Shown: positions 20,504 to 38,536 of the stretch, in pieces
Position numbering within the stretch: position 1 is the stretch's first letter
Layout of the letters: each line of letters begins with the position of its first letter
Source of the DNA: Parcubacteria group bacterium
Lineage (GTDB): Bacteria > Patescibacteriota > Minisyncoccia > Moranbacterales > UBA2206
Assembly (NCBI GenBank): GCA_041664225.1
Contig: JBAYLE010000001.1
Location: forward strand, 68,939 to 132,938
Direction of reading: 5' to 3'
DNA length: 64,000 bases
Notes under the pieces: model-generated
Seen by the model: the letters and a program-made list of their open reading frames with translations, nothing else
What the model was told of the DNA's origin: nothing
Database searches by the model: none
Position numbers and translations under genes: made by a program

Positions 20504-20508
20504 AATTC

Positions 20509-26777: not shown

Positions 26778-26845
26778 TTTGATGTCTTGACATTAAAGTT
26801 AGAATACTGTAAGCTGAAAGTAATAAAAGCCCCGAGGGCTTTTTA
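26778..26845 (+). promoter_or_regulatory. Putative promoter (TTGACA 26787-26792, 17-nt spacer, TAAGCT) followed by leader hairpin AGCCC-CGA-GGGCT+TTTTT (26827-26845) upstream of secE
   Basis: Direct reading; the hairpin could terminate the tRNA transcript or attenuate secE-nusG. Confidence 0.35.
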
Positions 26846-26860
26846 AAAAACCTCAAAAAT

Positions 26861-27046
26861 ATGAATAAAATAACTCAATTTTTAAGAGAGGCTAAGGCGG
26901 AACTTTTGAAAGTAAATTGGCCTTCGAGGCAGCAGTCTATAAACTATACTTTGATGGTTATTGCTATCAGCATAGTTGTGGCTCTTTTTCTTGGAGGATT
27001 AGATTATTTTTTTGGTTACATTTTAAAAACTTTTATCGTAAAATAA
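26861..27046 (+). CDS. secE: Preprotein translocase subunit SecE
   Basis: 61 aa single-TM protein immediately upstream of nusG. Confidence 0.85.
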   Translation: MNKITQFLREAKAELLKVNWPSRQQSINYTLMVIAISIVVALFLGGLDYFFGYILKTFIVK

Positions 27047-27047
27047 T

Positions 27048-27593
27048 ATGGCAAAACAAACGCAACATCACGGCAGAGCTTGGTATGTTATCCATACCTA
27101 CAGCGGATATGAGGATAATGTGGCGAGAAATCTGAAACAAAGGATAGAATCCATGGATATGCAAGATCTGATTTTCGAAGTGATGGTTCCGATTGAGAAA
27201 AAAATAAAGATAAAGGCTGGCAAAAGAACAGTGGTTGAAGAAAAAATCTACCCAGGCTATGTATTGGTAGAAATGATCGTAACAGACGCGTCTTGGTATG
27301 TGGTACGCAATACTCCAAACGTAACGGGATTTATCGGTTTGGGTACTACACCGACTCCGGTTGATCCTGCCGAAATCGAGATGCTTAAGAAAAGAATGGG
27401 CGTGGCTGAGCCGAAATATAAAATTGATGTTAAAGTCGGAGAATCAGTTAAAATTATTGATGGACCATTCAAAGATTTCGATGGCAAGGTAGACGAGGTA
27501 GATGAAGCCAAGGGCAAGGTCAAAGTGTTAGTTTCTATCTTTGGTCGGGAAACCCCAGTAGAATTAGACTTCTTACAAATTAATAAGATATAA
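27048..27593 (+). CDS. nusG: Transcription termination/antitermination factor NusG
   Basis: NGN domain ([11 protein letters not shown]) plus KOW ([10 protein letters not shown]). Confidence 0.94.
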
Positions 27594-27601
27594 AAAAGTA
27601 T

Positions 27602-28024
27602 ATGGCTAAAAAGATTAAAACAGTTATCAAATTGCAAATCCAAGCTGGTAAGGCTAATCCAGCACCGCCAGTCGGGCCAGCGCTTGGTCAGCACGGTGTA
27701 AATATTCAGGAATTTTGCACCAAATTTAATGAGGCGACTAAAGACAAGATGGGAGACATTATTCCAGCTGAAATCACTGTGTTTGAAGACCGGACCTTTA
27801 CTTTTGTTCTGAAGACTCCGCCTGCTTCTGATTTGCTGCGCAAGGCGGCAAAAATCGAAAAGGGTGCTGGAAATCCACTGAAAGACAATGTTGGAAAAAT
27901 AACCAAGGCGCAGTTGCGTGAAATAGCGGAAAAGAAAATGTCGGATCTGAACGCTAATGATGTCGATGCAGCCGAAAAAATAATTGCTGGCACAGCCAGA
28001 TCAATGGGGGTTAAGATCGAATAA
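27602..28024 (+). CDS. rplK: 50S ribosomal protein L11
   Basis: [16 protein letters not shown] motif. Confidence 0.96.
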
Positions 28025-28077
28025 TTTTTTAATTTGCGGGAGCTAGCCTTGGGCTGACGTTAAAACCGCGAAAATAT

Positions 28078-28749
28078 ATGAAAAGAGGAAAAAAATATCG
28101 AGCGATTGCCGATAAGATAGATAAAAATAATATCTATTCCGTAGAAGAGGCGGTCAAATTGATGAAAGAAAACAAAATCGCCAAATTTAACGAGTCAGTA
28201 GAGGTTCACATTAAAACCAATGTGGATACGAAAAAGGGCGACCAACAGATTCGCGGTACGGTGATTCTGCCCCATGGAACCGGCAAAAGTAAAATAGTAG
28301 CGGTGATAACTTCAACTTCGGAAAAAGAAGCGAAGGAGGCCGGAGCGGACATTGTTGGCGGAGAAGAATTGATTGAAAAATTCAGCAAAAAAATCAATTT
28401 TGATGTTTTGGTCGCAACTCCAGAAATGATGCCCAAACTGGCCAAGGTTGCGAAGATACTCGGTCCCAAGGGCTTGATGCCAAATCCGAAAACTGAAACC
28501 GTGACGACTAAAATTAAGGAAACTGTGGAAGCGTTGAAAAAAGGTAAGGCAGCTTTCAAAAATGACGATACATCAAATATTCATCAGCCGGTCGGAAAAA
28601 TTTCTTTTGAAGATAACAAATTAGTTGAGAACATAAAAGCATTTATTGAAGCGATTGAAAAAAGTAAGCCGGCCACTTTCAAGGGTAAGCTCATTGCTAA
28701 TATAACCGTCTGTTCGACGATGGGCAGAGGAATACGGATAAAAGTATAA
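28078..28749 (+). CDS. rplA: 50S ribosomal protein L1
   Basis: 223 aa L1 signature. Confidence 0.94.
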   Translation: MKRGKKYRAIADKIDKNNIYSVEEAVKLMKENKIAKFNESVEVHIKTNVDTKKGDQQIRGTVILPHGTGKSKIVAVITSTSEKEAKEAGADIVGGEELIEKFSKKINFDVLVATPEMMPKLAKVAKILGPKGLMPNPKTETVTTKIKETVEALKKGKAAFKNDDTSNIHQPVGKISFEDNKLVENIKAFIEAIEKSKPATFKGKLIANITVCSTMGRGIRIKV

Positions 28750-28771
28750 TATTTTCTATGTATTTTGAAAA

Positions 28772-28806
28772 ACCTCGTTCCGCCAGCTGGCGGAGGCGAG
28801 GTTTTT
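28772..28806 (+). terminator. Intrinsic terminator after rplA containing palindrome TCCGCCAGCTGGCGGA
   Basis: cctcgttccgccagctggcggaggcgagg + TTTTTT. Confidence 0.8.
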
Positions 28807-28871
28807 TATTGACTTGATAACTAATTTCCAGTAAAATTATAAAGTGTTGATAATCAAATAATCTTATATGA

Positions 28872-29426
28872 ATGGAGAATAAAAAAATTGTGATCGGTCT
28901 TTTGGGCGAGAGTGGATCAGGGAAGGACACGGTTGCCAAGTACCTAAAGGAAAAATATGGAGCAAATTTGATGCGCTTTGCTGATCCAATCAAAGAAACA
29001 CTGCATATTTATTTTGAACAAAGCTCAAGAGAGGATCAACAGTGGTTGGCATTGGAATTTAGAAAAAGATTTGGAAATGATATTTTATCGCGGGCGATAA
29101 GAAAAAAAATAGACAACACCGATGGATTGGTAGCTGTTAATGGACTCCGTTTCTGGGAAGATTATGATTTTGTCAAAGGATTTGGGCCTGGCTATGTTTT
29201 ATATATTACCGCTGATCAAAAATTGCGTTGGGAAAGGACGGCTGGAAGAGGCGAGAAAGCGGATGATGATATTACGTTCGAAAAATTTCAGGAGATGGAA
29301 CGAGTTGAAACAGAAATTCATATTCCAGAAATTGGCGCTAAAGCTGATTTTAAGATAGTAAACGAAAAAGATCCGGAATCTTTACTCAGATCGGTAGATG
29401 AAATTATGGCGAAAATACTTAAATAG
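28872..29426 (+). CDS. Deoxynucleoside monophosphate kinase-like P-loop kinase (phage T4 gp1-like)
   Basis: GLLGESGSGKDT...FADPIKETL resembles T4 dNMP kinase motifs FLSGVKRSGKDT...AGPIKDAL (from memory). Confidence 0.55.
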   Translation: MENKKIVIGLLGESGSGKDTVAKYLKEKYGANLMRFADPIKETLHIYFEQSSREDQQWLALEFRKRFGNDILSRAIRKKIDNTDGLVAVNGLRFWEDYDFVKGFGPGYVLYITADQKLRWERTAGRGEKADDDITFEKFQEMERVETEIHIPEIGAKADFKIVNEKDPESLLRSVDEIMAKILK

Positions 29427-29435
29427 CCCGCAATA

Positions 29436-29467
29436 AAAGCCGTTTTCTGTAAAGAGCGGCTTTTTTG
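29436..29467 (+). terminator. Intrinsic terminator (AGCCG...CGGCT + TTTTTT)
   Basis: Hairpin plus T-run after the kinase gene. Confidence 0.6.
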
Positions 29468-29624
29468 ACCAACAAAACAAAAGGAGGTAAAATAGAGGAA
29501 CCCATCTAAGCAATAACTTCAAATAAAACCATGATCTAATTCTGAATTATTAATGTGGACGGAGCATAATTTATAATTAGACTTTTTGTTGCTTCAGTGC
29601 AACATAAGATTTTCACAAAATAAA

Positions 29625-30953
29625 ATGAAGAAATTACAAAAACAAGACCCGAAAATTTATAATGCAATCAAGAAAGAAATTAAAAGGCAAGAAGAAGAGC
29701 TAGAACTCATACCTTCTGAAATCGCGGCTTCAATCCCGGTGATGGAGGCTTTGGGATCAGTTATGACCAACAAGTATAGCGAAGGATATCCGCATAAAAG
29801 ATATTATGGCGGACAGCCAAATACGGACGAGATAGAAGATATCGCCATTGAACGGGCCAAGAAACTATTTAAAGTTCCACATGCCAACGTGCAGCCGTAT
29901 TCCGGAAGTCCGGCAAATCTTGCAGTGTATGTTGCGGTGTGCAATCCTGGCGATACAATTATGGGGCTCAATCTTCTTGATGGCGGACACCTGACCCACG
30001 GCTGGAAGGCCAGCGCCACCAGTATGTTTTATAAATCCGTTCCGTATCATGTAAAACCGGATGGCTATCTTGACTTGAAAGAAATTGAAAAATTGGCGAC
30101 AAAACATAAGCCGAAATTAATTTGGGTCGGGGCGACTGCTTATGTGAGAGAATTTCCTTTTGAAAAGTTGGCAAAAATTGCGGACAAGGTTGGTGCCTAT
30201 CTTGCAGCGGATATTGCGCACATTGCGGGCCTGGTGGTCGCGGGTGCACACAAAAGTCCCGTTAAATACGCACATATTGTGACGACTACAACGCATAAAA
30301 CTTTGCGCGGGCCAAGGGGAGGGATGATTATGGTTACGCAAAAGGGACTCAAAAAAGATCCGGAGCTGGCGCAAAAAATCGATCGGGCGATATTTCCGAA
30401 TTTGCAAGGAGGTCCGCATAACCATCAAACGGCGGCTGTTGCCGTTACTTTGGGAGAAGCCATGAAGCCATCGTTTAAAGTTTGGGGCAAGCAAGTTGTA
30501 AAAAATGCCAAGGCGCTGGCAAGCGAATTGATGAAAAATGGAGTAAGATTAGTGAGTAACGGAACGGATAATCACATGATGCTCATTGATTGCGGGAAGG
30601 GGCGGGGAGTATTGCTACAAAATGCTCTGGAAGAGGCAGGCATGACTGTAAACAAAAACACTATTCCTGCTGATCCTTCTTCGCCGTTCTATCCGAGCGG
30701 AGTCAGGCTAGGCACCCCTTTTATCACGGTTCGAGGCATGAAGGAAAAAGAAATGAAAATTATTGCCGGATGGATCGCTGAAGTGATGGCGGATGTTAAG
30801 GAGTTTCAGTTTCCGGAAGATAAAGAAAAAAGAAAAGAAGCTCTGAAAAAATTCAGGAAATACATAGCTTCAAGCAAAAAACTCAAACAAATTCGCGCGG
30901 ATATCAAAAATTTGTGCAAAAAATTCCCCCTGTATAAAGATTTAAAATGGTAA
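29625..30953 (+). CDS. glyA: Serine hydroxymethyltransferase
   Basis: SHMT PLP motifs (TTTTHKTLRGPRGG); start at MKKLQ within ORF opening at 29586. Confidence 0.94.
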   Translation: MKKLQKQDPKIYNAIKKEIKRQEEELELIPSEIAASIPVMEALGSVMTNKYSEGYPHKRYYGGQPNTDEIEDIAIERAKKLFKVPHANVQPYSGSPANLAVYVAVCNPGDTIMGLNLLDGGHLTHGWKASATSMFYKSVPYHVKPDGYLDLKEIEKLATKHKPKLIWVGATAYVREFPFEKLAKIADKVGAYLAADIAHIAGLVVAGAHKSPVKYAHIVTTTTHKTLRGPRGGMIMVTQKGLKKDPELAQKIDRAIFPNLQGGPHNHQTAAVAVTLGEAMKPSFKVWGKQVVKNAKALASELMKNGVRLVSNGTDNHMMLIDCGKGRGVLLQNALEEAGMTVNKNTIPADPSSPFYPSGVRLGTPFITVRGMKEKEMKIIAGWIAEVMADVKEFQFPEDKEKRKEALKKFRKYIASSKKLKQIRADIKNLCKKFPLYKDLKW

Positions 30954-30965
30954 CTTTTTACCGTC

Positions 30966-31523
30966 ATGCAAAGTAGGAAAATAATCGCTATTCTTGGTCT
31001 GCCTGGTTCAGGAAAATCGGAAGTGATAGATTTTATCATTGAAAAATATGGATGGCCGAAAATTTATTGCGGAGAGCCAACTTTTGATGAACTCCGACGG
31101 CTCAAGTTGCCATTCACCGAGAAAAACGAAAGAATGGTTAGGGAGGGATTGCGGAAAAAATTTGGCTCTCGTTATTACGGCGAGCAGGTAATAAAAAAGA
31201 TTAAGAAAATAGGAGGCAATAAAAATATCATACTGGAGAGTTTTTATACTTGGGATGAATATATTTTATTCATGGAAAAATTCAAAACTGATTTTATCAC
31301 TCTCGCTGTCCACGCTTCTCCGAAGATTAGATACAAAAGACTTAAGGACCGCAAAGAGCGTCCGCTTACTAAGAAAGAGGCGCAGGGGCGCGATTATGCC
31401 CAGATAGAAAATTTGAAACAGGGTGGTCCGATTGCTGTGACGGATTATATGATTGTAAATGAAAGCACTAAAGAAGAATTGAGAAAAAATGTGGATAATA
31501 TAGTTAAAAAACTAAAGAAATAA
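30966..31523 (+). CDS. P-loop nucleoside/nucleotide kinase-like protein (second paralogous kinase)
   Basis: ILGLPGSGKSE Walker A; size and layout of small NMP-kinase-like proteins. Confidence 0.5.
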   Translation: MQSRKIIAILGLPGSGKSEVIDFIIEKYGWPKIYCGEPTFDELRRLKLPFTEKNERMVREGLRKKFGSRYYGEQVIKKIKKIGGNKNIILESFYTWDEYILFMEKFKTDFITLAVHASPKIRYKRLKDRKERPLTKKEAQGRDYAQIENLKQGGPIAVTDYMIVNESTKEELRKNVDNIVKKLKK

Positions 31524-31527
31524 AATT

Positions 31528-32172
31528 ATGCCGCAAATTAAGAAAAGAAACATGAAAAAGAAACGCGCTTCTGTTGCTTCGAATGTTTTTGATTCCGAGT
31601 TGGTTTTTGGGAATCGGGTTGTATCTGATTACAAAAAATTGAAAAAAGCAGTTGAACATTGCAAGGGATTAGGGCTTGGAATTGTCCTGACATCCGGAAC
31701 CTGGGACTTGGTGCATATTGGTCACGCCCGCTATTTTCAGGAGGCGAAAAGACACGGTGATTTGCTGGTGGTCGGAGTTGACAGTGATGAAAAAGTGCGC
31801 AATCGCAAGGGTCCCGATCGTCCTATTGTTCCGGAAGACGAGCGTATGGAAATGGTCACTCATCTGAGATATGTCGACCTGGTTTTTTTGAAACAGGCGC
31901 ATGATCCCAAGTGGCACCTGATTAAACTCATAAGACCGGATGTTTTGATACTGACCGATGAAACATACAATAAAAAAACCCAGAAAGAACTGAAAAAGTA
32001 TTGCGGTGAAATAGTGGTTTTGAAACCGCAAGCTACGACCTCAACCAGTGCTAAAATCAGAAGACTGCAAATTTCTACTGCCAAAAAACTTCAGGATAAG
32101 CTGACCCCGAGACTGATGCAAACAATAGAAGACGTGTTATCGGAAATTAAAGAAGAAAAACTAAAAAAATGA
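31528..32172 (+). CDS. Cytidylyltransferase-family nucleotidyltransferase (TagD/RfaE domain II-like, HxGH motif)
   Basis: TSGTWDLVHIGHARYF...VVGVDSDEKV...RPIVPEDER matches the (H/T)xGH cytidylyltransferase family. Confidence 0.65.
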   Translation: MPQIKKRNMKKKRASVASNVFDSELVFGNRVVSDYKKLKKAVEHCKGLGLGIVLTSGTWDLVHIGHARYFQEAKRHGDLLVVGVDSDEKVRNRKGPDRPIVPEDERMEMVTHLRYVDLVFLKQAHDPKWHLIKLIRPDVLILTDETYNKKTQKELKKYCGEIVVLKPQATTSTSAKIRRLQISTAKKLQDKLTPRLMQTIEDVLSEIKEEKLKK

Positions 32173-33047
32173 AAAAAGTTACCTTAGCATATGTTCCGGT
32201 TTTGCATGAAGGCTACCGGCGTTTTCTGGAAAAATATCAGAATGCCAATCTTTATATTTTAGGACCTGATATAATTTCAGAATTTTCGCAACTCTCAAAA
32301 GAAATACGGCAACTTGATCCGGAGATCGTGAAAAAATCGATAGAAAGCTGGGGGATTCACAAAAATATTTTTATCTCCAACAAAAAAGAAATTCAGAAAA
32401 TTAGAGATGAGGCGGAGGAAATTGTCATGCCGGACGAGGACATTATGCATGAGCTGGCGGAAAAATATTTTTCGGATAAAAAAATTATTTTTGACGCAAT
32501 CTTTTTGCGCTGGGATAAACACAGCACTACAAAAGAAAAAGAGGTGAGTTTCGATCGTAAAATTTCGGTTGATGAATTTGACAAAGAAATGATCTTGACG
32601 GCAGATGCGGAAGGGCAAAAGAGTTCAGATTGGTGGCGAAGAATTGGTTCGGTGGTTGTGAAAGATGGAAAAACAATAATCTCAGCTCACAACAAGCATG
32701 TTCCGTCTGAGCATATGCCATATGTCAATGGCGATCCGCGCAGTAATTTTCATAAAGGCGACCATCTAGAGCTTTCTTCAGCCATCCATTCGGAAGCGGC
32801 GGCCATTGCGGAAGCGGCGAGACTTGGGATCAGTTTGGAGGGCGCTAGTATTTATGTCACAACTTTCCCATGTCCGCCATGTGCCAAGTTGATTGCTTAT
32901 TCTGGTATCAAGAAAATTTATTACAACATCGGCTATGGAGTTTTGGACGGTGAAAGCATTCTGAGGGACAAGGGAGTGGAAATTATTTTTGTAGACGTGG
33001 ACATTCCGCAGAAAAAAGGACTGGGGGATATTGAGTATAAAAAATAA
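32169..33047 (+). CDS. dCMP deaminase (ComEB-like CDA fold) with ~130 aa N-terminal extra domain
   Basis: C-terminal half has HSEAAAI...PCPPCAKLI zinc-deaminase motifs; N-terminal domain unassigned. Confidence 0.8.
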   Translation: MKKVTLAYVPVLHEGYRRFLEKYQNANLYILGPDIISEFSQLSKEIRQLDPEIVKKSIESWGIHKNIFISNKKEIQKIRDEAEEIVMPDEDIMHELAEKYFSDKKIIFDAIFLRWDKHSTTKEKEVSFDRKISVDEFDKEMILTADAEGQKSSDWWRRIGSVVVKDGKTIISAHNKHVPSEHMPYVNGDPRSNFHKGDHLELSSAIHSEAAAIAEAARLGISLEGASIYVTTFPCPPCAKLIAYSGIKKIYYNIGYGVLDGESILRDKGVEIIFVDVDIPQKKGLGDIEYKK

Positions 33048-33067
33048 AAATACTTTGGATAAAAAAT

Positions 33068-33095
33068 AAACCCCCGAGTGATTTGGGGGTTTTTG
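33068..33095. terminator. Bidirectional intrinsic terminator (CCCCC...GGGGG with A-run/T-run flanks) between convergent genes
   Basis: aaaaaataaacccccgagtgatttgggggtttttg. Confidence 0.65.
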
Positions 33096-33119
33096 CTGTT
33101 TCCAGCAAGGCAGCTCGGT

Positions 33120-33590
33120 TTATTTCAGTCTTTCCTTTCGTGCATTTTCTTTTTCGGGGCTGCGGTCCTTGAAGAGTGTCTCGGCTACCGGCTCTGTACC
33201 ATGTGGAACCACTATACTTTCGAAGTAGTGGTCGTCGGGCAAAGAACTGGCGTTCAGCGCTCTGTCACCGAAACGATGAATGATACCTCCACCGCGGAGG
33301 CTGAGTTCTTTGATCAACCAGTACCTGGCTTTGAAAATCTCTTCCATTTCTTTCGGTGCCAGTTCTTGCATTCTGATATGACGCTTAGGTATTATCAGAT
33401 ACATGTCACGTCCGGGTTTTGGGTATGCGTTTTTGCGTACAACGACCAGCGAAAATTCAGCGATAATAGCGCTTCCTTGTATTGCATCCGGCAGACACCA
33501 GGCGCATCCATGCTTTGCTGCTTTTTCTGTTGCCCTCATCTGTTCTTTTGAACGAACTGTGCTTGGGTCGACTTTAAAAGGTTTTTTCAT
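33120..33590 (-). CDS. HIT-superfamily-like protein (CxxC N-motif, degenerate histidine triad)
   Basis: CAWC...LIIPKRHI...DHYFESIVVPH resembles the HIT/GalT-like layout; paralogous to the downstream HIT gene. Confidence 0.4.
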   Translation of the reverse strand: MKKPFKVDPSTVRSKEQMRATEKAAKHGCAWCLPDAIQGSAIIAEFSLVVVRKNAYPKPGRDMYLIIPKRHIRMQELAPKEMEEIFKARYWLIKELSLRGGGIIHRFGDRALNASSLPDDHYFESIVVPHGTEPVAETLFKDRSPEKENARKERLK

Positions 33591-33691
33591 TACTCCTCCT
33601 CCTTTGCGCCTTTGGCGTCTTAAATTTATTGAATTTCAAATAAAAACCATAGCAAAAATATACCTCGCAATAAGGATTTTGTCAATGATTT

Positions 33692-34198
33692 CTACTTCAA
33701 GTATGGTTTATTTAAATTTTTATAGCCCAGTTTTACTTTTAACTTTTCATATTCCGCATCTGTGCCTTTGGCGTTGCCGACAATAAGTTGTGCGTGGAAA
33801 TGTTCGACACTGCCGCCGGTATATTCTGTTTTGCCAAAGCGTATGAAAAACGAACCACCTTCAATTTCAAACTCCTTTTCTGCCCACCCAATTAATTCAA
33901 ACAATTCCTTAGCTCCATCTGAGCTAATTTCTGAAGGAAGGGTAGTATGTTTTTTATAAACGAAAAGCAAGCTTACCCTTGTTCCTTCGTAGGGGTTCAT
34001 ATTTTCCGTAGCATACCACCATTTGGTTTCTTTCAAGATCGGATTTGGATGATATTTAGTGAAATATTCCGGGCAGAAAGGGCACACGCCATCTTCCGCG
34101 ATTTTGCGCATCAGCTCAATTTGCTTGGGAGTGCGCGCATGATTAAAATCCAAAAATCCAATTTTTTCTTTTTTTGTGTATTTTTTTGCTTTGTCCAT
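33692..34198 (-). CDS. HIT-family nucleotide hydrolase/transferase (CxxC + HxHxQ motif)
   Basis: GVCPFCPE...LFVYKKH...SVEHFHAQLIVGN. Confidence 0.6.
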   Translation of the reverse strand: MDKAKKYTKKEKIGFLDFNHARTPKQIELMRKIAEDGVCPFCPEYFTKYHPNPILKETKWWYATENMNPYEGTRVSLLFVYKKHTTLPSEISSDGAKELFELIGWAEKEFEIEGGSFFIRFGKTEYTGGSVEHFHAQLIVGNAKGTDAEYEKLKVKLGYKNLNKPYLK

Positions 34199-34203
34199 AT
34201 AGT

Positions 34204-35148
34204 TTATATCATTACCGGTATACCTTTTATTCCCGGATGCGGGTCATAATCGCTAAGTTCGAAATCTTCTTTTCTGAAAGCGAACAAGTCTTTCTTTCCA
34301 GTGTTCATTTTCATCGTTGGAAATAGACGTGATTCTCGTTCTAGCATCTTTTCTACAGCCGGAATCTGGTCAATATAAATATGAGCATCGGATATTGTGT
34401 GGACATATTCGTAAGGTATAGTTCCGGTTGCGTGCGCCAGCATCATGGTCAGGGCGGCATATTGAACCATGTTAGAAGGAACACCTATCGGTACATCGCC
34501 AGATCTTTGAATCATATTGAGAATAAGCTTATTATCTATGATTCTAATGTGAAGCCACCCATGGCAAGGGCAAACAACCACTTTCTGAACCTTGCCTTTA
34601 CCTCGGCCGTTGTATTGTGGAATCCAGGGAGAAATGAAATGCGTGCGCAGTTGCGGCTCTTCCTTGATTTGTTCAACGATGTGTTGAAACTGGTTGAATG
34701 TCTTTCCTTCAGCAGTCGGAAAATCATGAAAAGCGGCTCCATACGAACCAGGCCCGAGATCTCCGGTAGTAAGTCCTCTTTTGGAACATTTTTTTTCTGT
34801 GCACCAATCTTTCCACCAATAGACGCCAAATTTTTCAAGTTCTTCGACGGTGCGAGCTCCATTTATGAAAGCGCAAATTTCCGCGATAGCTTGTTGCCAG
34901 ATCGTGACCGGCAAAGCTGACATTTTTGGAGCCATATTTCTTTCAGTAATCATCGGGAAGCCGTTATCCAGTCTGAAACGCATGGGACGTGCCCCAACGA
35001 GAGTAATAGCGTCTGTGCTAGGACCCACCTTGCCAGAAGTGAAATCGGACCGGATACCTTTTTCAAGAATTTCTTTTAGGAGTTCCTTGTATTGGTTGTC
35101 CGGACTTCTTTCGCCGAGGGGCTTCATTTTGACAATGTCTTCAAACAT
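34204..35148 (-). CDS. thyA: Thymidylate synthase (ThyA family, with ~50 aa insertion)
   Basis: Alignable end-to-end with ThyA: RFRLDNGFP, CPCH catalytic Cys, QRSGDV, PSN, DYDPHPGIKGIPVMI C-terminus. Confidence 0.85.
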   Translation of the reverse strand: MFEDIVKMKPLGERSPDNQYKELLKEILEKGIRSDFTSGKVGPSTDAITLVGARPMRFRLDNGFPMITERNMAPKMSALPVTIWQQAIAEICAFINGARTVEELEKFGVYWWKDWCTEKKCSKRGLTTGDLGPGSYGAAFHDFPTAEGKTFNQFQHIVEQIKEEPQLRTHFISPWIPQYNGRGKGKVQKVVVCPCHGWLHIRIIDNKLILNMIQRSGDVPIGVPSNMVQYAALTMMLAHATGTIPYEYVHTISDAHIYIDQIPAVEKMLERESRLFPTMKMNTGKKDLFAFRKEDFELSDYDPHPGIKGIPVMI

Positions 35149-35183
35149 AGTTTTTGCTAAAAGTTTAATGGTTATTACCCTTA

Positions 35184-35317
35184 GGACTTACGCATTTGTC
35201 TCAAAAATTCCTATAGCGACCCCGTAAAAGCTAAACTAGATGCTCGCTTTTTACTTAAGGCTGTGCCCCGCGAAAAACATCAGCCGTAAGTAATTTTTTC
35301 GCCAAACGCATAAGTCC
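35184..35317 (-). promoter_or_regulatory. Conserved 5'-leader motif upstream of thyA (GGACTTACGCA ... AATTTTTTCGCCAAACGCATAAGTCC), shared with the thrS leader
   Basis: ~35-nt near-identical block to 42644-42679; both lie 24-36 nt upstream of minus-strand start codons. Confidence 0.45.
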
Positions 35318-35415
35318 TTGTATTATATCCCATGACGGTTAGTCTGCCAAATTGGCTCATTTGGATTATTTTTGTCCTTTTGATATAATAAAATAACGAT
35401 AAATTAAGACAAAAT

Positions 35416-35889
35416 ATGATTTCAATTATTGTGGCAATCGGCAAAAACAGAGCCATCGGACGCAAAAATCAGTTGCTGTGGGATATCCCGGAGGACATGG
35501 ACCATTTTCGGAAAACCACATCCGGCCGTACTGTCATCATGGGCGACAGGACATTCGAATCAATCGGCCATCCTTTGCCAAAAAGGAAAAATATCGTAGT
35601 GACTCTGAAGGAAAATTACGAGGCTCCCGGTTGCGAGGTGCGTAGTTCTCTGGAAGAAGTTTTGAACGAATATAAAAATAGCGAAGAAGAAGTTTTTGTG
35701 ATTGGCGGCGGGATAATTTATAAACTATCGTTGCCGTTTGCCGATAAACTATATTTGACGGTCGTGGATGACGCGCCGGAAGATGCGGACACATTTTTCC
35801 CTGATTATTCGGAATTTAAAAATGTTGTGAAAGAAGAGTCGATGGATAATGGACAATATAAATTTACCTTCTTGGAATTAACCAGATAA
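35416..35889 (+). CDS. folA: Dihydrofolate reductase
   Basis: MISIIVAIGKNRAIG...LLWDIPEDMDHFRKTT... canonical DHFR. Confidence 0.93.
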   Translation: MISIIVAIGKNRAIGRKNQLLWDIPEDMDHFRKTTSGRTVIMGDRTFESIGHPLPKRKNIVVTLKENYEAPGCEVRSSLEEVLNEYKNSEEEVFVIGGGIIYKLSLPFADKLYLTVVDDAPEDADTFFPDYSEFKNVVKEESMDNGQYKFTFLELTR

Positions 35890-35899
35890 AAATAAATTT

Positions 35900-36229
35900 A
35901 TGAATTTTGAAGAGTATCAAACAAAATCCAGGCGAACGGCGCTGTATCCTGATATAGGAAAAAACTTCATTTATCCGACTTTGGGATTGGCTGGAGAATC
36001 TGGAGAAGTAGCAGAGAAAATAAAAAAAGTACTTCGGGATAAAGCCGGAATTGTTGACGAGGAAACCAAAGAAATGATAAAGAAAGAATTAGGCGACGTG
36101 CTTTGGTATGTGGCGCAACTGGCGTCTGAACTGGGTTTGTCGCTGGATGAAATTGCGGAAAATAATATTATAAAATTAGCTAGCCGGCTCGAAAGAGGAG
36201 TGCTGCAAGGCAGTGGGGATAATAGATAA
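35900..36229 (+). CDS. MazG-like nucleoside triphosphate pyrophosphohydrolase (small all-alpha NTP-PPase)
   Basis: LGLAGESGEVAEKIKK...ELGDVLWYVAQLA EExxE/D motif pattern. Confidence 0.8.
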   Translation: MNFEEYQTKSRRTALYPDIGKNFIYPTLGLAGESGEVAEKIKKVLRDKAGIVDEETKEMIKKELGDVLWYVAQLASELGLSLDEIAENNIIKLASRLERGVLQGSGDNR

Positions 36230-36236
36230 TAAATTT

Positions 36237-37706
36237 ATGTCTAAATACATACCAGTAATCGGGATGGAAATTCACGTTGAGCTCAAGACTAAGAGCAAGA
36301 TGTTTTGTGATTCTAAAAATGGACTAGGACAGGAGTCGGAACCAAATGTGAACATTTGTCCGGTTTGCACCGGCCAACCAGGAACTTTGCCGGTGGCCAA
36401 TCGGCAAGCGATTGAATTTGTGCAGATGGCCGGATTGGCCCTTAATTGTGAAATTGCCAAAGTTTCCAAATTTGACCGTAAAAACTATTTTTATCCTGAT
36501 TTGCCCAAAGGCTATCAAATTTCACAATATGACCAACCATTATGTGGAAAGGGCTCGCTGGATATCGATGGCAAAACAATAGGCATCACTCGGATTCACC
36601 TAGAAGAGGACACCGGCAAATTGGTGCATCCGAAAAATGTCGATTATTCGCTGGTGGACTTTAACCGAGCCGGGGTGCCGCTAATGGAGCTGGTGACAGA
36701 ACCAGACATCGAAACGGGAGCAGAAGCCCGTCTATTTTGCCAAAAATTGCAGCAGATTTGCCGATATCTAGGCATTTCGGACGCAGACATGGAAAAGGGC
36801 AACATGCGCTGTGAGGCCAATATTTCGCTTTACAAGAAAGGCGAGGAAAAACTAAGTGGCACGAAGGTAGAAGTGAAGAATATAAATTCTTTCAAGTTTG
36901 TTGAAAAGGCGATTGATGCCGAAATAAAGCGTCAGACAGCGCTTTTAGGGAAGGACGGAAAGGTGATCCAAGAGACTCGCGGTTGGGATGAAACCAAGGG
37001 CGAAACTGTTCCACAACGCGTCAAGGAATCCGCTCACGATTATCGATATTTCCCCGAACCTGACATCCCGCCGTTGCGATTTACGGATGACTACATCGAA
37101 AAATTACGCCGCAGCTTGCCGGAATTGCCTGACCAAAAAGAAAAGAGATTTATGGCTGAATATGGTTTGTCTCGCGAAAATATGGATGTCATAACAAGTG
37201 ACAAAAGTTTAGCTGAATACTTTGAGGAAGTGGTTTCTGAGATCAAAGAAAAAATGAAATGCGGCGAAGTCATTGGTGATGAGGTAAAGTGTTTGAAACT
37301 CTCAGCTAATTATATGGTTAGCGAATTACAGAAACATTTGATCAAAAATAGTCACAAAATTGAGGAGATAAAAATAACTCCCGAAAATTATGCCGAACTG
37401 ATCGGTTTCATAGCAGAAGGAAAAATAAATTCCAGCGCGGCCCAGGCAGTGTTGGAAGAAATGTATCACACTGGCGGTGATCCCTCACAAATCATCGAAG
37501 CTAAGGGGTTGATCCAAATGAGCGATGAAGGTGTTCTTGAAGCGATTGTGGATAAGGTGATTAGTAAAAACCAAAAATCATCCGAGGATTATAAAGCTGG
37601 CAAGCAGAACGCCCTGCAGTTTTTGATGGGGCAGGTGATGAAAGACTCAAAAGGTAGAGCGAATCCGCAGATAGTGATTGAAATGTTAAAGAAAAAATTA
37701 AGTTAA
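36237..37706 (+). CDS. gatB: Asp/Glu-tRNA(Asn/Gln) amidotransferase subunit B
   Basis: PVIGMEIHVELKTKSKMFC...; start chosen at MSKYIP to avoid overlap. Confidence 0.93.
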   Translation: MSKYIPVIGMEIHVELKTKSKMFCDSKNGLGQESEPNVNICPVCTGQPGTLPVANRQAIEFVQMAGLALNCEIAKVSKFDRKNYFYPDLPKGYQISQYDQPLCGKGSLDIDGKTIGITRIHLEEDTGKLVHPKNVDYSLVDFNRAGVPLMELVTEPDIETGAEARLFCQKLQQICRYLGISDADMEKGNMRCEANISLYKKGEEKLSGTKVEVKNINSFKFVEKAIDAEIKRQTALLGKDGKVIQETRGWDETKGETVPQRVKESAHDYRYFPEPDIPPLRFTDDYIEKLRRSLPELPDQKEKRFMAEYGLSRENMDVITSDKSLAEYFEEVVSEIKEKMKCGEVIGDEVKCLKLSANYMVSELQKHLIKNSHKIEEIKITPENYAELIGFIAEGKINSSAAQAVLEEMYHTGGDPSQIIEAKGLIQMSDEGVLEAIVDKVISKNQKSSEDYKAGKQNALQFLMGQVMKDSKGRANPQIVIEMLKKKLS

Positions 37707-37711
37707 AAAAT

Positions 37712-37957
37712 ATGTTATTTAGAAACATCGAAAAAGGGTCGGAAAGCAAGGAAGAAGAGCGGCTTATGGAAGAAAGTATTGGCGGGCCTTGGGATAAAAA
37801 TTACTCCGAACAGCTGGATGATCAAGGTGAACCGATTGAAGAAGAGGAGCTGGATTTGGTGAATCCGTTTAAAGATTTGGATGAAAAAACCTTAGAAAGG
37901 ATGAGGTTAGAGACAGAAGAAGAAAGGAGAAAAAATGAAGAAAAGCTTGCTGCTTGA
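37712..37957 (+). CDS. Hypothetical small acidic protein
   Basis: 81 aa, very Glu/Asp-rich; no family recognised. Confidence 0.4.
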   Translation: MLFRNIEKGSESKEEERLMEESIGGPWDKNYSEQLDDQGEPIEEEELDLVNPFKDLDEKTLERMRLETEEERRKNEEKLAA

Positions 37958-38057
37958 CGAAGTTTTTAAGGTTTGCTATGATTGGTAAAATATGAAAATG
38001 CCAGCAACAAAATTCAGAAAGAGGCCAATGGTTGTTTCATATTTTCTGAAAAGGGTA

Positions 38058-38084
38058 TTCCGCCAATAGGGCGGATTTTTTTTG
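38058..38084 (+). terminator. Intrinsic terminator with TCCGCC-AATAG-GGCGGA palindrome + T8
   Basis: attccgccaatagggcggatttttttt. Confidence 0.7.
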
Positions 38085-38167
38085 GCTCTTTAACAAAACG
38101 AAGATCATTAGAATTATTAAAATAATGGCTAGCAAAAAATTTATCAAAGTTAAAAAGGAGGAAGGTC

Positions 38168-38536
38168 ATGTTAACAACCTCGAAGGATGTAGCCTCAAAA
38201 AAAGTTGTTTTTGATCAAAGCGATCTGGATGGGATTCCGAATATTCTTTCTGTGGTTTTTGCTGAAACGGCAGGTACAGACTTCCAGCATAGAGCTGAAG
38301 TCCTGTTTGAACGGACGGGGGCGATGTTGGATCCAATCGAACTTGGTTATTCGCAAAAAAATATTGCTGATATCGTAACATCTCGCGTCAAAATCATATG
38401 CCCTTTCTGCGGGGACGCGTTCATCGGACCATGCTACTGTCTCGGGGAAGGGGTAATCTCATTGCTGGATAAGGAAAAATTTGAAATGATATTATTGAAA
38501 AATATCAATGAACAACGGCAAGTGTCTTTGCCCTGA
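38168..38536 (+). CDS. Hypothetical protein with CPFC...CYC cysteine motif
   Basis: 122 aa ORF preceded by strong RBS AAAAAGGAGGAAGGTC. Confidence 0.55.
   Translation: MLTTSKDVASKKVVFDQSDLDGIPNILSVVFAETAGTDFQHRAEVLFERTGAMLDPIELGYSQKNIADIVTSRVKIICPFCGDAFIGPCYCLGEGVISLLDKEKFEMILLKNINEQRQVSLP

What the first reader, a model, noticed from the sequence alone, without database searches (positions are those of the whole stretch)
28872..36229. Compact thymidylate-cycle and nucleotide-salvage island with a phage T4-like dNMP kinase, extra kinases/transferases and two HIT proteins
Between the rplA terminator and gatB lie a T4 gp1-like dNMP kinase (SGKDT...DPIKETL motifs), glyA (CH2-THF supply), a second P-loop kinase, a cytidylyltransferase-family HxGH nucleotidyltransferase, dCMP deaminase, two divergent HIT-family proteins, an insert-bearing thyA, folA and a MazG-like NTP pyrophosphatase. 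Together these convert dCMP to dUMP to dTMP, recycle DHF and sanitise the pool. The gene set (hydroxymethylase-family enzyme, dNMP kinase, nucleotidyltransferase, HIT, MazG) also resembles phage-type nucleotide or DNA base-modification modules. The adjacent folA and conserved thyA Asn (PSN) argue for ordinary dTMP synthesis. The function of the two kinases, the nucleotidyltransferase and the HIT pair is undetermined.
Basis: partly seen in the sequence, partly recalled or inferred. Interest (0 to 1): 0.55.

Follow-up and report, generated by a model that had tools for sequence, protein, structure and literature searches.

The report
Conserved thymidylate gene cluster with unexplained enzymes
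This is the chromosomal gene cluster that makes the DNA building block dTMP in a tiny candidate-phyla (Patescibacteria) bacterium, not a phage or DNA-modification island; its standard enzymes are tightly linked, across hundreds of species, to a nucleotidyltransferase, a related domain fused to dCMP deaminase, and histidine-triad (HIT) enzymes whose roles nobody has described.

Summary
Their identities hold: SHMT, ThyA, DHFR, a MazG-like pyrophosphatase, dCMP deaminase (DCD), a cytidylyltransferase-family enzyme (NT), two paralogous P-loop kinases and two paralogous HIT proteins.

It is not a mobile or phage island. The same block sits beside secE-nusG-rplK-rplA in 309 species-level genomes; the 80 loci fetched nearly all carry Patescibacteria-type names. 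No relative was found in viral contigs.

- The deaminase carries a 135-residue N-terminal domain with no family match. It models as a cytidylyltransferase-like fold, with HxGY in place of HxGH.
- NT lies directly upstream of the deaminase in every locus with sequence there. A natural NT–deaminase fusion exists.
- HIT-A lies directly downstream of thyA or folA. Natural DHFR–HIT-A fusions exist.
- The window's HIT-B has lost the nucleophilic histidine.

The kinases resemble archaeal UPF0200 more than T4 gp1.

Best reading: an ordinary dCMP→dUMP→dTMP pathway with folate recycling, plus an uncharacterised catalytic pair (NT and HIT). That pair probably feeds cytidine deoxynucleotides to the deaminase and ThyA; this step is inferred, at about 0.3. 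Verdict: a new variant of a known kind, of moderate interest.

The parts
28768..28808 (+). rplA terminator hairpin with T-run; upstream boundary of the cluster
   Evidence: Read directly from the sequence: AACCTCGTTCCGCCAGCTGGCGGAGGCGAGGTTTTTT. The simple terminator scan missed it.
28872..29426 (+). K1: P-loop NMP-kinase-like protein of the DNMK/UPF0200 type (184 aa); probably a (d)NMP kinase
   Evidence: PF21448 DNMK 4.7e-9, above cut-off, residues 8-71 only. phrog_139 dNMP kinase 8.5e-27 full length. PRK08356 5e-19. Best solved relative is Sulfolobus SSO1041 at 3.4e-11; T4 gp1 only 8.5e-3. This kinase type occurs in 18 of 80 related loci, usually directly upstream of NT.
29625..30953 (+). 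glyA, serine hydroxymethyltransferase (442 aa from the ATG at 29625)
   Evidence: PF00464 3e-152; NF000586 534 bits, above the 335 cut-off. Within 10 kb of the deaminase in 43 of 80 loci.
30966..31523 (+). K2: paralogue of K1 (185 aa)
   Evidence: 26% identical to K1, E 1e-11. AAA_17 6e-12. SSO1041 2.4e-11. PADLOC dCTPase kinase-like region 1.2e-9.
31528..32172 (+). NT: cytidylyltransferase-family nucleotidyltransferase (214 aa) with all catalytic motifs intact; its stop overlaps the deaminase start codon (ATGA)
   Evidence: PF01467 3.6e-22. The closest equivalog is RfaE domain II at 109 bits, below its 181.5 cut-off. Best solved relatives are human ECT at 1e-18 and HldC at 2.5e-14. In 79 orthologues these residues are conserved at 90% or more: G57, D60, H63, G65, H66, R93-K94-G95-P96, R98-P99, R114, D117, T171-S-T-S, K176, R178. 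The overlap is read.
32169..32570 (+). N-terminal domain of the deaminase: a degenerate cytidylyltransferase-like (HUP) domain with HEGY in place of HxGH; matches no Pfam or NCBIfam model
   Evidence: No family hit on residues 1-137. AlphaFold model pLDDT 84.8, with five alternating strand-helix units. Top Foldseek PDB hits are 3glv, the Fom1 cytidylyltransferase domain, TagD, PPAT and PanC (E 4e-3 to 2e-2, TM about 0.55). hhalign against the NT profile gives E 0.04 and puts HEGY on HIGH. Invariant residues: P10, V11, H13, G15, Y16, G32, K44, R47, L49, F112, L113, R114. It occurs in 469 clusters at 50% identity; nearly all the listed hits of 270-310 aa carry it at the N-terminus, as expected for the full deaminase.
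32571..33047 (+). dCMP deaminase catalytic domain (zinc-dependent CDA fold; HxE and PCxxC present)
   Evidence: PF00383 2e-16. Best solved relatives are T4 Cd (1vq2) at 5e-16 and cyanophage S-TIM5 dCD at 2e-15. H207, E209, C235 and C238 are invariant.
33068..33092 (.). Hairpin terminator between the convergent NT-DCD and thyA-HIT operons (11-bp stem)
   Evidence: Terminator-like site AAACCCCCGAGTGATTTGGGGGTTT followed by a T-rich tail.
33120..33590 (-). HIT-B: second HIT paralogue (156 aa), degenerate in this lineage (HYFES replaces HxHxQ; CAWC retained)
   Evidence: 26% identical to HIT-A, 3e-9; its DHYFES aligns to HIT-A's EHFHAQ. B-slot paralogues form their own group in 46 loci, and most of them keep H-x-H. 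Only this protein and three B-slot relatives (L030, at 57% identity, plus L022 and L029) have lost the middle His.
33692..34198 (-). HIT-A: divergent but catalytically intact histidine-triad protein (168 aa; CPFC and HFHAQ); starts 5 nt after the thyA stop
   Evidence: Family profile against PDB HIT proteins 1.7e-6. 22 of 30 members hit PF01230 at E<=0.1. C39, C42, H50, H84, H133 and H135 are invariant. Present in 77 of 80 loci; 77 of 78 A-slot copies keep HxHx[HQ]. DHFR–HIT-A single-ORF fusions occur in L041 and L067.
34204..35148 (-). thyA: thymidylate synthase with three inserts (314 aa)
   Evidence: PF00303 1e-61. TIGR03284 182 bits, above the 108 cut-off. Best solved relative 6auj at 2.4e-45; the alignment shows PCH, QRS, D, PSN, DAH and the C-terminal PGIKG-PV conserved.
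35322..35350 (-). Promoter-like site for thyA-HIT-A, in the divergent intergenic region shared with folA
   Evidence: TTGGCA-17-TATAAT, 11 of 12 matches. A consensus match only.
35416..35889 (+). folA, dihydrofolate reductase (157 aa)
   Evidence: PF00186 3e-52. Present in 61 of 80 loci.
35900..36229 (+). Small MazG-like NTP pyrophosphatase (109 aa), in the folA-gatB slot that holds dut in the closest relative
   Evidence: PF03819 8e-12. phrog_229 2e-39. Only 3 of 80 related loci carry it, whereas dUTPase is in 29. In L009 the order is folA-dut-gatB. No dut homologue lies in the window.

Best explanation
The region is the vertically inherited chromosomal module for dTMP and dTTP supply of a Patescibacteria (Parcubacteria or Moranbacteria-like) bacterium.

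Shown or securely inferred from family membership:
- DCD converts dCMP to dUMP.
- ThyA methylates dUMP to dTMP.
- GlyA and FolA regenerate CH2-THF.
- The MazG-like enzyme occupies the dUTPase slot.
- K1 and K2 are (d)NMP-kinase-like enzymes. One of them probably stands in for Tmk (weak evidence).

Shown by comparative genomics: two further catalysts belong to this pathway.
- NT is a fully intact cytidylyltransferase-family enzyme. It is translationally coupled to, and once naturally fused with, a deaminase that itself carries a degenerate copy of the NT fold.
- HIT-A is an intact histidine-triad enzyme. It is coupled to thyA or folA, and at least twice is fused to DHFR.

Inferred mechanism (probability about 0.3):
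1. NT uses a pyrimidine (deoxy)nucleoside triphosphate, most plausibly dCTP from ribonucleotide reduction. It transfers the (d)CMP moiety to a small phosphorylated acceptor and releases PPi.
2. The conjugate, or the dCMP released from it, is deaminated by the attached deaminase.
3. HIT-A cleaves the pyrophosphate link to release the monophosphate (dCMP or dUMP) for ThyA.

Together this would be a dCTP-to-dUMP route analogous in outcome to Dcd+Dut. The NT-like N-domain probably pairs with NT, as the two tandem domains of ethanolamine-phosphate cytidylyltransferase do, or binds nucleotide. HIT-B of this genome is probably a non-catalytic partner of HIT-A.
For: Gene identities.

Synteny in 80 loci from different species:
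- NT directly upstream of DCD in 77. The other 3 are cut by a contig end.
- HIT-A in 77, thyA in 74, folA in 61, glyA in 43.
- dut in 29, folD in 25, tmk in 13, K-type kinase in 18, a YfbR-like HD 5'-deoxynucleotidase in 8.

Operon coupling:
- The NT-to-DCD gap is an overlap or <=20 nt in 64 of 78 loci.
- The thyA/folA-to-HIT-A gap is an overlap or <=20 nt in 60 of 74 loci.
- The ATGA overlap in the window is read.

Natural fusions:
- NT+N-domain+DCD (P0274), on 2 contigs and followed by DHFR and ThyA genes.
- DHFR+HIT-A in L041 and L067.

Both unknowns are enzymes, not relics:
- The NT catalytic set is >=90% conserved in 79 sequences.
- The HIT-A nucleophile motif is kept in 77 of 78 copies.

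The N-domain has an NT-like fold, with HxGY at the HxGH position.

Chemistry, from established knowledge of the families: CT-family enzymes make NMP-O-P-X pyrophosphate conjugates from NTP, and HIT enzymes (Fhit, DcpS, GalT, Cdh) cleave exactly such links through an NMP-His intermediate.

The module is not viral, and no literature on it was found.
Against: - No substrate was or can be determined from sequence. NT's nearest characterised relatives use ATP (RfaE-II/HldC) as well as CTP (ECT, TagD, CCT).
- No conserved gene for a candidate phospho-acceptor sits in the cluster.
- A MazG or Dut in the same cluster already gives NTP to NMP in one step, so a two-enzyme route looks redundant.
- The fusion-protein model was too poor (pLDDT 67.6, pTM 0.43) to show an NT:N-domain interface.
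- N-domain similarity to NT is weak at sequence level (hhalign E 0.04) and moderate at fold level (Foldseek E 4e-3, TM about 0.55).
- The Tmk versus K-type kinase exclusion (1 locus in common against about 3 expected) is not statistically significant and considers only +/-10 kb.
- Fusions of adjacent operon genes show co-function, not reaction order.
Confidence: 0.55

Rival explanations
1. Regulatory or scaffold model. NT and the NT-like N-domain are nucleotide-binding sensor or oligomerisation modules that control the deaminase in response to dCTP and dTTP. They would play the role of the classical allosteric site of dCMP deaminases, or of the kinase-like domain of DcdV-type deaminases. HIT-A would be a general house-cleaning hydrolase (for Ap4A or NMP-amidates) that merely shares the operon.
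For: - The N-domain has lost the second His of HxGH yet remains highly conserved, as expected of a binding domain.
- The deaminase core scores better against the anti-phage dCTP-deaminase models, which pair a nucleotide-binding domain with the deaminase, than against ComEB (2.7e-18 against 7.6e-14; PADLOC 4.6e-18).
- Classical dCMP deaminases are allosterically regulated (established knowledge).
Against: - NT keeps every catalytic residue of the family in 79 orthologues, which is unnecessary for a sensor.
- HIT-A is as tightly conserved and coupled as ThyA itself, and is fused to DHFR in two lineages, which is unusual for a generic house-cleaning enzyme.
Confidence: 0.25
2. Phage-derived or DNA base-hypermodification module. 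The ThyA homologue would be a pyrimidine hydroxymethylase. The kinase, NT, HIT and MazG would build or protect a modified nucleotide, as in T4, SPO1 or phiW-14-type systems.
For: - The gene set superficially matches phage nucleotide-precursor modules.
- K1, DCD, ThyA, DHFR and MazG all hit PHROG families.
- The best solved relatives of the deaminase are phage enzymes.
Against: - ThyA passes the thymidylate-synthase equivalog cut-off, keeps the dUMP-specifying Asn and the C-terminal folate-closing tail, and is paired with DHFR, which hydroxymethylases do not need.
- The block lies beside secE-nusG-rplKA in 58 of 80 species.
- No relative was found in 2.9 million viral contigs.
- G+C content matches the flanks.
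- There are no glycosyl-, amino- or methyl-transferases for base decoration in the block.
Confidence: 0.03
3. NT belongs to an unrelated pathway (ADP-heptose, CDP-glycerol or another envelope precursor, FAD, NAD or CoA), and its position next to the deaminase has no functional meaning.
For: - Public annotations call it heptose-1-phosphate adenylyltransferase.
- Its best NCBIfam hit is RfaE domain II (2e-31).
Against: - It scores below the curated cut-off of every such equivalog.
- It is adjacent to DCD in 77 of 77 loci where this could be assessed, mostly with overlapping or <=20-nt junctions.
- A natural fusion to the deaminase exists.
- The deaminase carries a diverged copy of the same fold.
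- No heptose, teichoic-acid, flavin or NAD genes are conserved nearby.
Confidence: 0.07
4. Kinase-bypass model. NT joins dTMP (or dUMP) to an NMP as a dinucleoside diphosphate. HIT-A then resolves it with phosphate or pyrophosphate to give dTDP or dTTP, which would replace Tmk and Ndk.
For: - NMNAT and FMNAT-type members of the same fold use nucleotide monophosphate acceptors, and some HIT enzymes are phosphorylases (established knowledge).
- A few HIT-A relatives weakly hit the ATP adenylyltransferase model (6 of 30, best 4e-5).
- No tmk lies in the window.
Against: - It is energetically costlier than a kinase.
- K-type kinases or canonical Tmk are present in many of the same clusters.
- In most family members the HIT-A motif is HxHxH, the hydrolase type, rather than the strictly HxHxQ of transferases and phosphorylases.
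Confidence: 0.05

Closest known systems
dCMP-deaminase route to dTMP (ComEB/DCTD + ThyA + DHFR + SHMT), as in Bacillus and eukaryotes
   Same: The same four enzyme families and the same chemistry for dCMP to dUMP to dTMP with DHF recycling. HxE/PCxxC deaminase and PCH/Asn thymidylate synthase residues are conserved.
   Different: The deaminase has an extra 135-residue NT-like N-domain. It is always preceded by a cytidylyltransferase-family gene. ThyA or DHFR is always followed by a HIT gene. DCD scores below the ComEB equivalog cut-off (52 against 219 bits).
Phage T4 dNTP-precursor enzyme set (gp1 dNMP kinase, Cd dCMP deaminase, Td thymidylate synthase, Frd DHFR)
   Same: The same functional repertoire in one compact block. 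T4 Cd is the best solved relative of the deaminase domain (5e-16). K1 passes the Pfam DNMK threshold.
   Different: The block is chromosomal, vertically inherited and absent from viral contigs. K1 aligns to T4 gp1 only over about 40 residues (8.5e-3) and is closer to archaeal UPF0200. T4 has no NT or HIT partner, to my knowledge.
Ethanolamine-phosphate cytidylyltransferase (ECT/Pcyt2), which has two tandem CT-fold domains in one chain
   Same: ECT is the best solved relative of NT (1e-18, matching both ECT repeats). The fusion P0274 has the same layout of an NT domain followed by a second NT-fold domain, which suggests a pseudo-dimer.
   Different: The second domain here has HxGY rather than HxGH and lacks the ISTT-type motif. 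It is normally on a separate polypeptide fused to a deaminase. The acceptor substrate is unknown. No interface could be modelled.
Anti-phage dCTP deaminases (DcdV type; NCBIfam NF041025, PADLOC dCTPase)
   Same: A CDA-fold deaminase core plus a nucleotide-binding accessory domain. The window's DCD core (2.7e-18) and both K1 and K2 (1e-6 and 1e-9) hit different parts of these fused defence proteins.
   Different: Here the kinase-like unit is a separate gene, and the domain fused to the deaminase has the HUP fold, not a P-loop. Scores are far below the equivalog cut-off (66 against 400 bits). The context is housekeeping dTMP synthesis, not defence.
Dcd + Dut and the archaeal bifunctional DCD-DUT (dCTP to dUMP)
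   Same: The proposed net outcome (dCTP to dUMP + PPi + NH3) would be the same. Dut itself sits in 29 of 80 related clusters.
   Different: The folds and chemistry are entirely different (a zinc deaminase plus nucleotidyl transfer and HIT hydrolysis). The equivalence is a hypothesis and has not been shown.
HIT superfamily hydrolases (Hint, Fhit) and the HIT-fold CDP-diacylglycerol hydrolase Cdh
   Same: HIT-A has the CxxC and HxHx(H/Q) motifs, and its profile hits Hint/Fhit-type structures. Cdh shows, from established knowledge, that HIT-fold enzymes can release CMP from CDP-alcohols.
   Different: The window protein is below Pfam and NCBIfam thresholds. It forms a Patescibacteria-specific family with a paralogous B form. 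Fusion to DHFR is, as far as I could find, undescribed.

Membership tests
Thymidylate synthase ThyA (PF00303 / TIGR03284) | Score above the curated equivalog cut-off | tested here: met
   TIGR03284 182.2 bits against a 108.35 cut-off; PF00303 208.7 against 24.3.
Thymidylate synthase ThyA (PF00303 / TIGR03284) | Catalytic Cys (PCH), phosphate-binding Arg (QRS), Asp, dUMP-specifying Asn, and the C-terminal folate-closing tail | tested here: met
   The alignment to 6auj shows cPCHg, QRSgDv, vPsN, sDaHiY and a ...PHPGIKg-PV ending. The second Arg of the RR pair is Thr, and there are three inserts.
Pyrimidine hydroxymethylase (T4 gp42-like) | Asp in place of the dUMP-specifying Asn; no requirement for DHFR | tested here: not met
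   Asn is retained (PSN). DHFR is adjacent here and in 61 of 80 loci.
T4 gp1-type dNMP kinase (PF21448 DNMK) | Pfam gathering threshold | tested here: met
   K1 scores 36.6 bits against 27.1, but only residues 8-71 align to model positions 3-65 of 232. K2 has no DNMK hit.
T4 gp1-type dNMP kinase (PF21448 DNMK) | Full-length similarity to T4 gp1 (1dek) | tested here: not met
   1dek scores E 8.5e-3 over residues 8-45 only. The full-length best match is SSO1041/UPF0200 at 3.4e-11.
T4 gp1-type dNMP kinase (PF21448 DNMK) | Phosphorylates dTMP, dGMP and hm-dCMP | not testable with these tools
   Only indirect evidence: the K-type kinase and canonical Tmk occupy similar slots and co-occur in 1 of 80 loci. 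This is not significant.
Canonical Tmk / Cmk / CoaE | Equivalog cut-offs | tested here: not met
   K1: DTMP_kinase 18.8 against 83; CoaE TIGR00152 31.5 against 65.6. K2: cyt_kin_arch 33.2 against 102.
Cytidylyltransferase-like nucleotidyltransferases (PF01467; TagD/CCT/ECT/RfaE-II) | HxGH motif, RYVD-type motif, C-terminal (R)TxGISTT-type motif, and the Pfam threshold | tested here: met
   HIGH (residues 63-66), RYVD (114-117) and ATTSTSAKIR (169-178) are all >=90% conserved in 79 orthologues. PF01467 79.4 bits against 21.
RfaE domain II / HldC heptose-1-P adenylyltransferase | Equivalog cut-off; heptose pathway context | tested here: not met
   TIGR02199 108.8 bits against 181.5. No heptose genes are conserved nearby.
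TagD glycerol-3-phosphate cytidylyltransferase | Equivalog cut-off | tested here: not met
   TIGR01518 51.2 bits against 165.4.
dCMP deaminase (PF00383; ComEB / T4 Cd) | HxE and PCxxC zinc motifs; Pfam threshold | tested here: met
   H207, E209, C235 and C238 are invariant. PF00383 60.1 bits against 25. T4 Cd 5e-16.
dCMP deaminase (PF00383; ComEB / T4 Cd) | ComEB equivalog cut-off; single-domain architecture | tested here: not met
   TIGR02571 51.9 bits against 219. There is an extra 135-residue N-domain.
Anti-phage dCTP deaminase (NF041025 / PADLOC dCTPase) | P-loop kinase-like domain fused N-terminally to the deaminase; equivalog cut-off | tested here: not met
   66 bits against 400. The N-domain has the HUP fold, not a P-loop.
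HIT superfamily (PF01230) | HxHxHxx (or HxHxQ) motif with the nucleophilic middle His | tested here: met
   HIT-A has HFHAQLI, with H133 and H135 invariant. 77 of 78 A-slot orthologues keep the motif.
HIT superfamily (PF01230) | The same motif in HIT-B | tested here: not met
   HIT-B has HYFES; the middle His is Phe. It is still a homologue of HIT-A (3e-9).
HIT superfamily (PF01230) | Pfam gathering threshold for the window proteins | tested here: not met
   Neither window protein gets a Pfam hit. Family-level support exists instead: 22 of 30 members at E<=0.1, profile against PDB 1.7e-6, and a B-slot relative (L033) at 28.2 bits against 21.5.
GalT / nucleotidyl-phosphorylase branch of HIT | Strict HxHxQ and a two-half (tandem HIT) architecture | tested here: inconclusive
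   The window's HIT-A has Q, but most orthologues have H at that position. The A and B paralogues, and one tandem HIT-HIT ORF (L074), recall GalT halves. Hits to GalT models are only marginal.
DHFR (PF00186) and MazG (PF03819) | Pfam thresholds | tested here: met
   DHFR 177 bits against 25; MazG 45.7 bits against 22.

The most novel reading that the evidence does not exclude
NT, the NT-like–dCMP deaminase fusion and the HIT-A/HIT-B pair form a previously undescribed enzyme system restricted to Patescibacteria. It would channel dCTP (or another pyrimidine NTP) into dUMP through a covalent nucleotidyl conjugate. That would be a third, mechanistically new solution to the universal dCTP-to-dUMP problem, alongside Dcd+Dut and bifunctional DCD-DUT. 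It would operate as a metabolon with ThyA and DHFR, as the NT–DCD and DHFR–HIT fusions suggest.
Probability: 0.25. Interest if true: 0.7.

Novelty: new variant of a known kind. Interest (0 to 1): 0.5.

Why it matters
dTMP synthesis is essential, and Patescibacteria have minimal genomes with little room for spare genes. Two catalytically intact enzymes of unknown role are welded by operon structure and natural fusions to dCMP deaminase, ThyA and DHFR in hundreds of species. They therefore probably mark a missing or alternative step in deoxypyrimidine metabolism.

The analysis yields clear, cheap biochemical experiments. It corrects public annotations, which call NT a 'heptose-1-phosphate adenylyltransferase' and the HIT proteins 'hypothetical'. 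It defines a new NT-fold domain family on dCMP deaminases. It may also point to the housekeeping ancestry of the kinase-plus-deaminase anti-phage dCTP deaminases.

If NT and HIT turn out to be only regulators or house-cleaning enzymes, the finding reduces to a well-conserved but ordinary thymidylate operon.

Tried and rejected
- Searching homologues with the 140-residue N-domain alone in the word-indexed database gave only 10 fragments. The exhaustive HMMER search and a full-length search were needed.
- The natural fusion P0274 was modelled instead. MAFFT kept aligning NT onto the N-domain when more than about 12 deaminase rows were present, which is itself a hint of homology. With only 15 rows the model was poor (pLDDT 67.6, pTM 0.43), so nothing was concluded about an NT:N-domain interface.
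- hhalign of N-domain against NT gave only E 0.04. It supports the register of the motif but is not proof on its own.
- Rfam found no riboswitch or other RNA in 26000-38500 except two tRNAs.
- The viral-contig scan found no relatives.
- Six literature searches found nothing on this gene association, on UPF0200, or on DHFR-HIT fusions.
- PADLOC and NCBIfam hits to anti-phage dCTP deaminase were considered and rejected as membership, because scores are far below cut-off and the context is housekeeping.
- Tmk versus K-type kinase complementarity was tested but is not significant.
- No tmk, dut, folD or YfbR homologue was found in the window. This says little, because the window is only 64 kb of the genome.

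Full report
OBSERVATION. The ten ORFs are at the coordinates given. Family searches confirm the following:
- glyA: SHMT 3e-152.
- thyA: PF00303 1e-61; TIGR03284 182 bits, above the 108 cut-off.
- folA: 3e-52.
- A small MazG-like pyrophosphatase: PF03819 8e-12; phrog_229 2e-39.
- A cytidylyltransferase-family enzyme, here called NT: PF01467 3.6e-22.
- A 292-residue dCMP deaminase, here called DCD: PF00383 on residues 138-252.
- Two P-loop kinases, K1 and K2.

The two proposed HIT proteins match no library model themselves. They are nevertheless paralogues of each other (26% identity, 3e-9). A profile of 30 HIT-A homologues hits solved Hint/Fhit-type proteins (best 1.7e-6), and 22 of 30 members touch PF01230.

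The rplA terminator hairpin (about 28768-28808) is visible in the sequence. A strong 11-bp hairpin at 33068-33092 separates the convergent NT-DCD and thyA-HIT operons. Rfam finds no regulatory RNA in the region.

ORGANISM AND CONTEXT. The window is ordinary chromosome of a Parcubacteria-group (Patescibacteria) MAG.
- Identical proteins occur on 148-198 kb contigs from JGI, ENA and NCBI.
- The flanks carry ribosomal-protein operons, secY, adk, murD, secE-nusG-rplK-rplA, gatB, thrS and dnaE.
- G+C content is uniform across the window.

(1) K1 and K2 are paralogues (26% identity, 1e-11). Both match archaeal UPF0200 protein SSO1041 over their full length (about 3e-11). T4 gp1 (1dek) aligns only around the P-loop (8.5e-3). 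K1 does pass the Pfam DNMK threshold, but only on residues 8-71.

(2) The deaminase carries a 135-residue N-terminal domain with no Pfam or NCBIfam match.
- An exhaustive HMMER search finds this domain in 469 clusters at 50% identity. Nearly all the listed hits of 270-310 aa carry it at the N-terminus, as expected for the full deaminase.
- Its invariant residues are P10, V11, H13, G15, Y16, G32, K44, R47, L49, F112, L113 and R114.
- An AlphaFold model (pLDDT 84.8) has five alternating strand-helix units, with H13-x-G15-Y16 at the start of the first helix.
- All top Foldseek PDB hits are HUP-class nucleotidyltransferases: 3glv, the Fom1 cytidylyltransferase domain, TagD, PPAT and PanC (E 4e-3 to 2e-2, TM about 0.55).
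- hhalign against the NT family places HEGY on HIGH (E 0.04). MAFFT repeatedly aligned NT onto this domain of its own accord.
- I conclude that the domain is a diverged copy of the NT fold. It has lost the second catalytic His.

(3) HIT-A keeps CPFC and HFHAQ. The window's HIT-B has CAWC and HYFES, so the nucleophilic middle His is Phe.

COMPARATIVE GENOMICS. A scan of one genome per species found 309 genomes with the extended deaminase. Nearly all of the 80 best loci carry Patescibacteria-type record names: Moranbacteria, Uhrbacteria, Paceibacteria, Taylor-, Zambryski- and Vogelbacteria, WWE3, Woesebacteria, and bins labelled Saccharibacteria. A handful are MAG bins labelled as other phyla.

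Within +/-10 kb of the deaminase:
- NT lies immediately upstream in 77 of 80 loci. The other 3 are truncated by a contig end.
- HIT-A is present in 77, thyA in 74, folA in 61, glyA in 43, and nusG/rplK in about 58.
- dut is present in 29, folD in 25, the K-type kinase in 18, canonical tmk in 13, a YfbR-like HD 5'-deoxynucleotidase in 8, and MazG in 3.

Junctions are tight. The NT stop to DCD start is an overlap or <=20 nt in 64 of 78 loci. The thyA or folA stop to HIT-A start is an overlap or <=20 nt in 60 of 74.

Three kinds of natural fusion exist:
- NT + N-domain + deaminase in one 469-residue protein (P0274). It occurs on two contigs, followed by a DHFR-containing 315-residue gene and thyA.
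- DHFR + HIT-A as single ORFs in a WWE3 genome and a Parcubacteria genome (L041, L067).
- One tandem HIT-HIT ORF (L074).

The B-slot HIT is a distinct paralogous family in 46 loci; every B protein's best hit is another B protein. Most B proteins keep H-x-H. Only the window's copy and three B-slot relatives (L030, at 57% identity, plus L022 and L029) have lost it.

In 79 NT orthologues the whole catalytic set of the cytidylyltransferase family is >=90% conserved: GxxDxxHxGH, RKGPxRP, RxVD and TSTSxKxR.

No relative of the extended deaminase exists in IMG/VR viral contigs.

INTERPRETATION. The canonical part is clear.
- DCD makes dUMP and ThyA makes dTMP.
- SHMT and DHFR (and FolD in relatives) cycle folate.
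- Dut, or here the MazG-like enzyme in the same folA-gatB slot (compare L009), cleans or converts dUTP.
- Tmk or a K-type kinase phosphorylates the product. K-type and Tmk genes occupy similar positions and co-occur in only one of 80 loci. With about three expected, that is only a hint.

ThyA is a genuine thymidylate synthase and not a hydroxymethylase.

The unexplained but clearly pathway-linked catalysts are NT and HIT-A. Enzymes of the NT family make NMP-phosphate conjugates from NTPs, and HIT enzymes cleave such conjugates through an NMP-His intermediate (established knowledge of both families). The simplest catalytic model is therefore that NT takes a pyrimidine dNTP, most plausibly dCTP, into a (d)CMP conjugate beside the deaminase, and HIT-A releases the monophosphate for ThyA. 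That would give a dCTP-to-dUMP route.

I put this specific mechanism at about 0.3. The broader statement, a vertically inherited dTMP module in which NT/DCD and HIT-A/ThyA/DHFR are functional units, I put at about 0.85. The composite confidence given is 0.55.

The main rival (0.25) is that NT and the N-domain are nucleotide-sensing or oligomerisation modules for the deaminase and HIT-A is a house-cleaning enzyme. Full conservation of NT's catalytic residues and the DHFR-HIT fusions argue against it but do not exclude it. The phage or base-modification reading is essentially refuted. The idea that NT serves an unrelated pathway is unlikely.

COMPARISON WITH KNOWN SYSTEMS.
- The block works like the ComEB/DCTD-ThyA-DHFR-SHMT route and has the same repertoire as the T4 precursor enzymes. 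It differs by the NT, the NT-like N-domain and the HIT pair.
- NT followed by a second NT-fold domain recalls the tandem repeats of ECT, which is NT's best solved relative.
- The K-type kinases and the deaminase core match different halves of anti-phage dCTP deaminases, but far below their cut-offs. That suggests shared ancestry rather than membership.
- Searches of the held literature found no description of the NT-DCD-HIT association or of DHFR-HIT fusions. Absence from that library does not prove novelty.

LIMITS.
- No substrates can be assigned from sequence.
- The model of the fusion protein was too poor to test an NT:N-domain interface.
- Only +/-10 kb per genome was examined, so the presence or absence of tmk, dut, dcd and ndk elsewhere in these genomes is unknown. 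None of tmk, dut, folD or YfbR lies in the 64-kb window.

VERDICT. This is a new variant of a known kind, of moderate interest (0.5). The value lies in a sharply defined, experimentally tractable pair of unknown enzymes inside an essential pathway of minimal-genome bacteria.

Noticed in passing
L041:10859-11815 (-) and L067:11710-12660 (-): Single ORFs of 318 and 316 aa encode a complete DHFR domain followed by a HIT-A domain. One is in a WWE3 genome and one in a Parcubacteria genome. The contig carrying P0274 also has a 315-aa DHFR-containing gene next to thyA.
   Followed up: yes
P0274 (ENA ERZ1426824 / ERZ1426813; no DNA held): A natural 469-aa fusion of NT, the NT-like N-domain and dCMP deaminase. 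The identical protein occurs on two contigs.
   Followed up: yes
L074:3632-4585 (-): A 317-aa ORF with two tandem HIT-like halves, reminiscent of the two-half GalT architecture. It sits in the B slot of the cluster.
   Followed up: partly
window 35900-36229 versus L009:14253-14678: The small MazG-like gene of the window sits between folA and gatB. In the closest relative that position holds a trimeric-type dUTPase. This suggests non-orthologous replacement of Dut by a MazG-like dUTP pyrophosphatase.
   Followed up: partly
window 12572-13591 (+): A separate, canonical two-domain GalT-type (GalP_UDP_transf / DUF4921) HIT-superfamily gene lies next to a family-2 glycosyltransferase. It is unrelated to the thymidylate cluster.
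   Followed up: no
window about 15730-21770: A NiFe hydrogenase (small and large subunits) with hypC, hypD, hypE, hypF and hypA-like maturation genes, plus a desulfoferrodoxin gene, in this small-genome bacterium.
   Followed up: no
window 59062-62213 (-): A chorismate mutase gene, a 566-572-aa fused prephenate dehydrogenase/prephenate dehydratase/ACT protein, and a class-IV aminotransferase. This is an unusually complete end of aromatic amino-acid synthesis for a Patescibacteria genome.
   Followed up: no
window 26581-26653 and 26678-26751 (+): Two tRNA genes lie immediately upstream of secE-nusG.
   Followed up: no
window 31528-32172 (public annotations): Public sources annotate NT as 'D-glycero-beta-D-manno-heptose 1-phosphate adenylyltransferase' or as the bifunctional heptose kinase/adenylyltransferase. 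Its score is below that equivalog's cut-off and its context is pyrimidine metabolism, so this is likely a mis-annotation that has propagated.
   Followed up: partly
L004 (JGI Ga0675941_000031, 724-kb contig): A distant relative's cluster also contains a YfbR-like HD 5'-deoxynucleotidase, a dUTPase, a NUDIX gene and two unannotated genes (171 and 297 aa) between HIT-A and the deaminase. The accessory content of the module is therefore variable.
   Followed up: no
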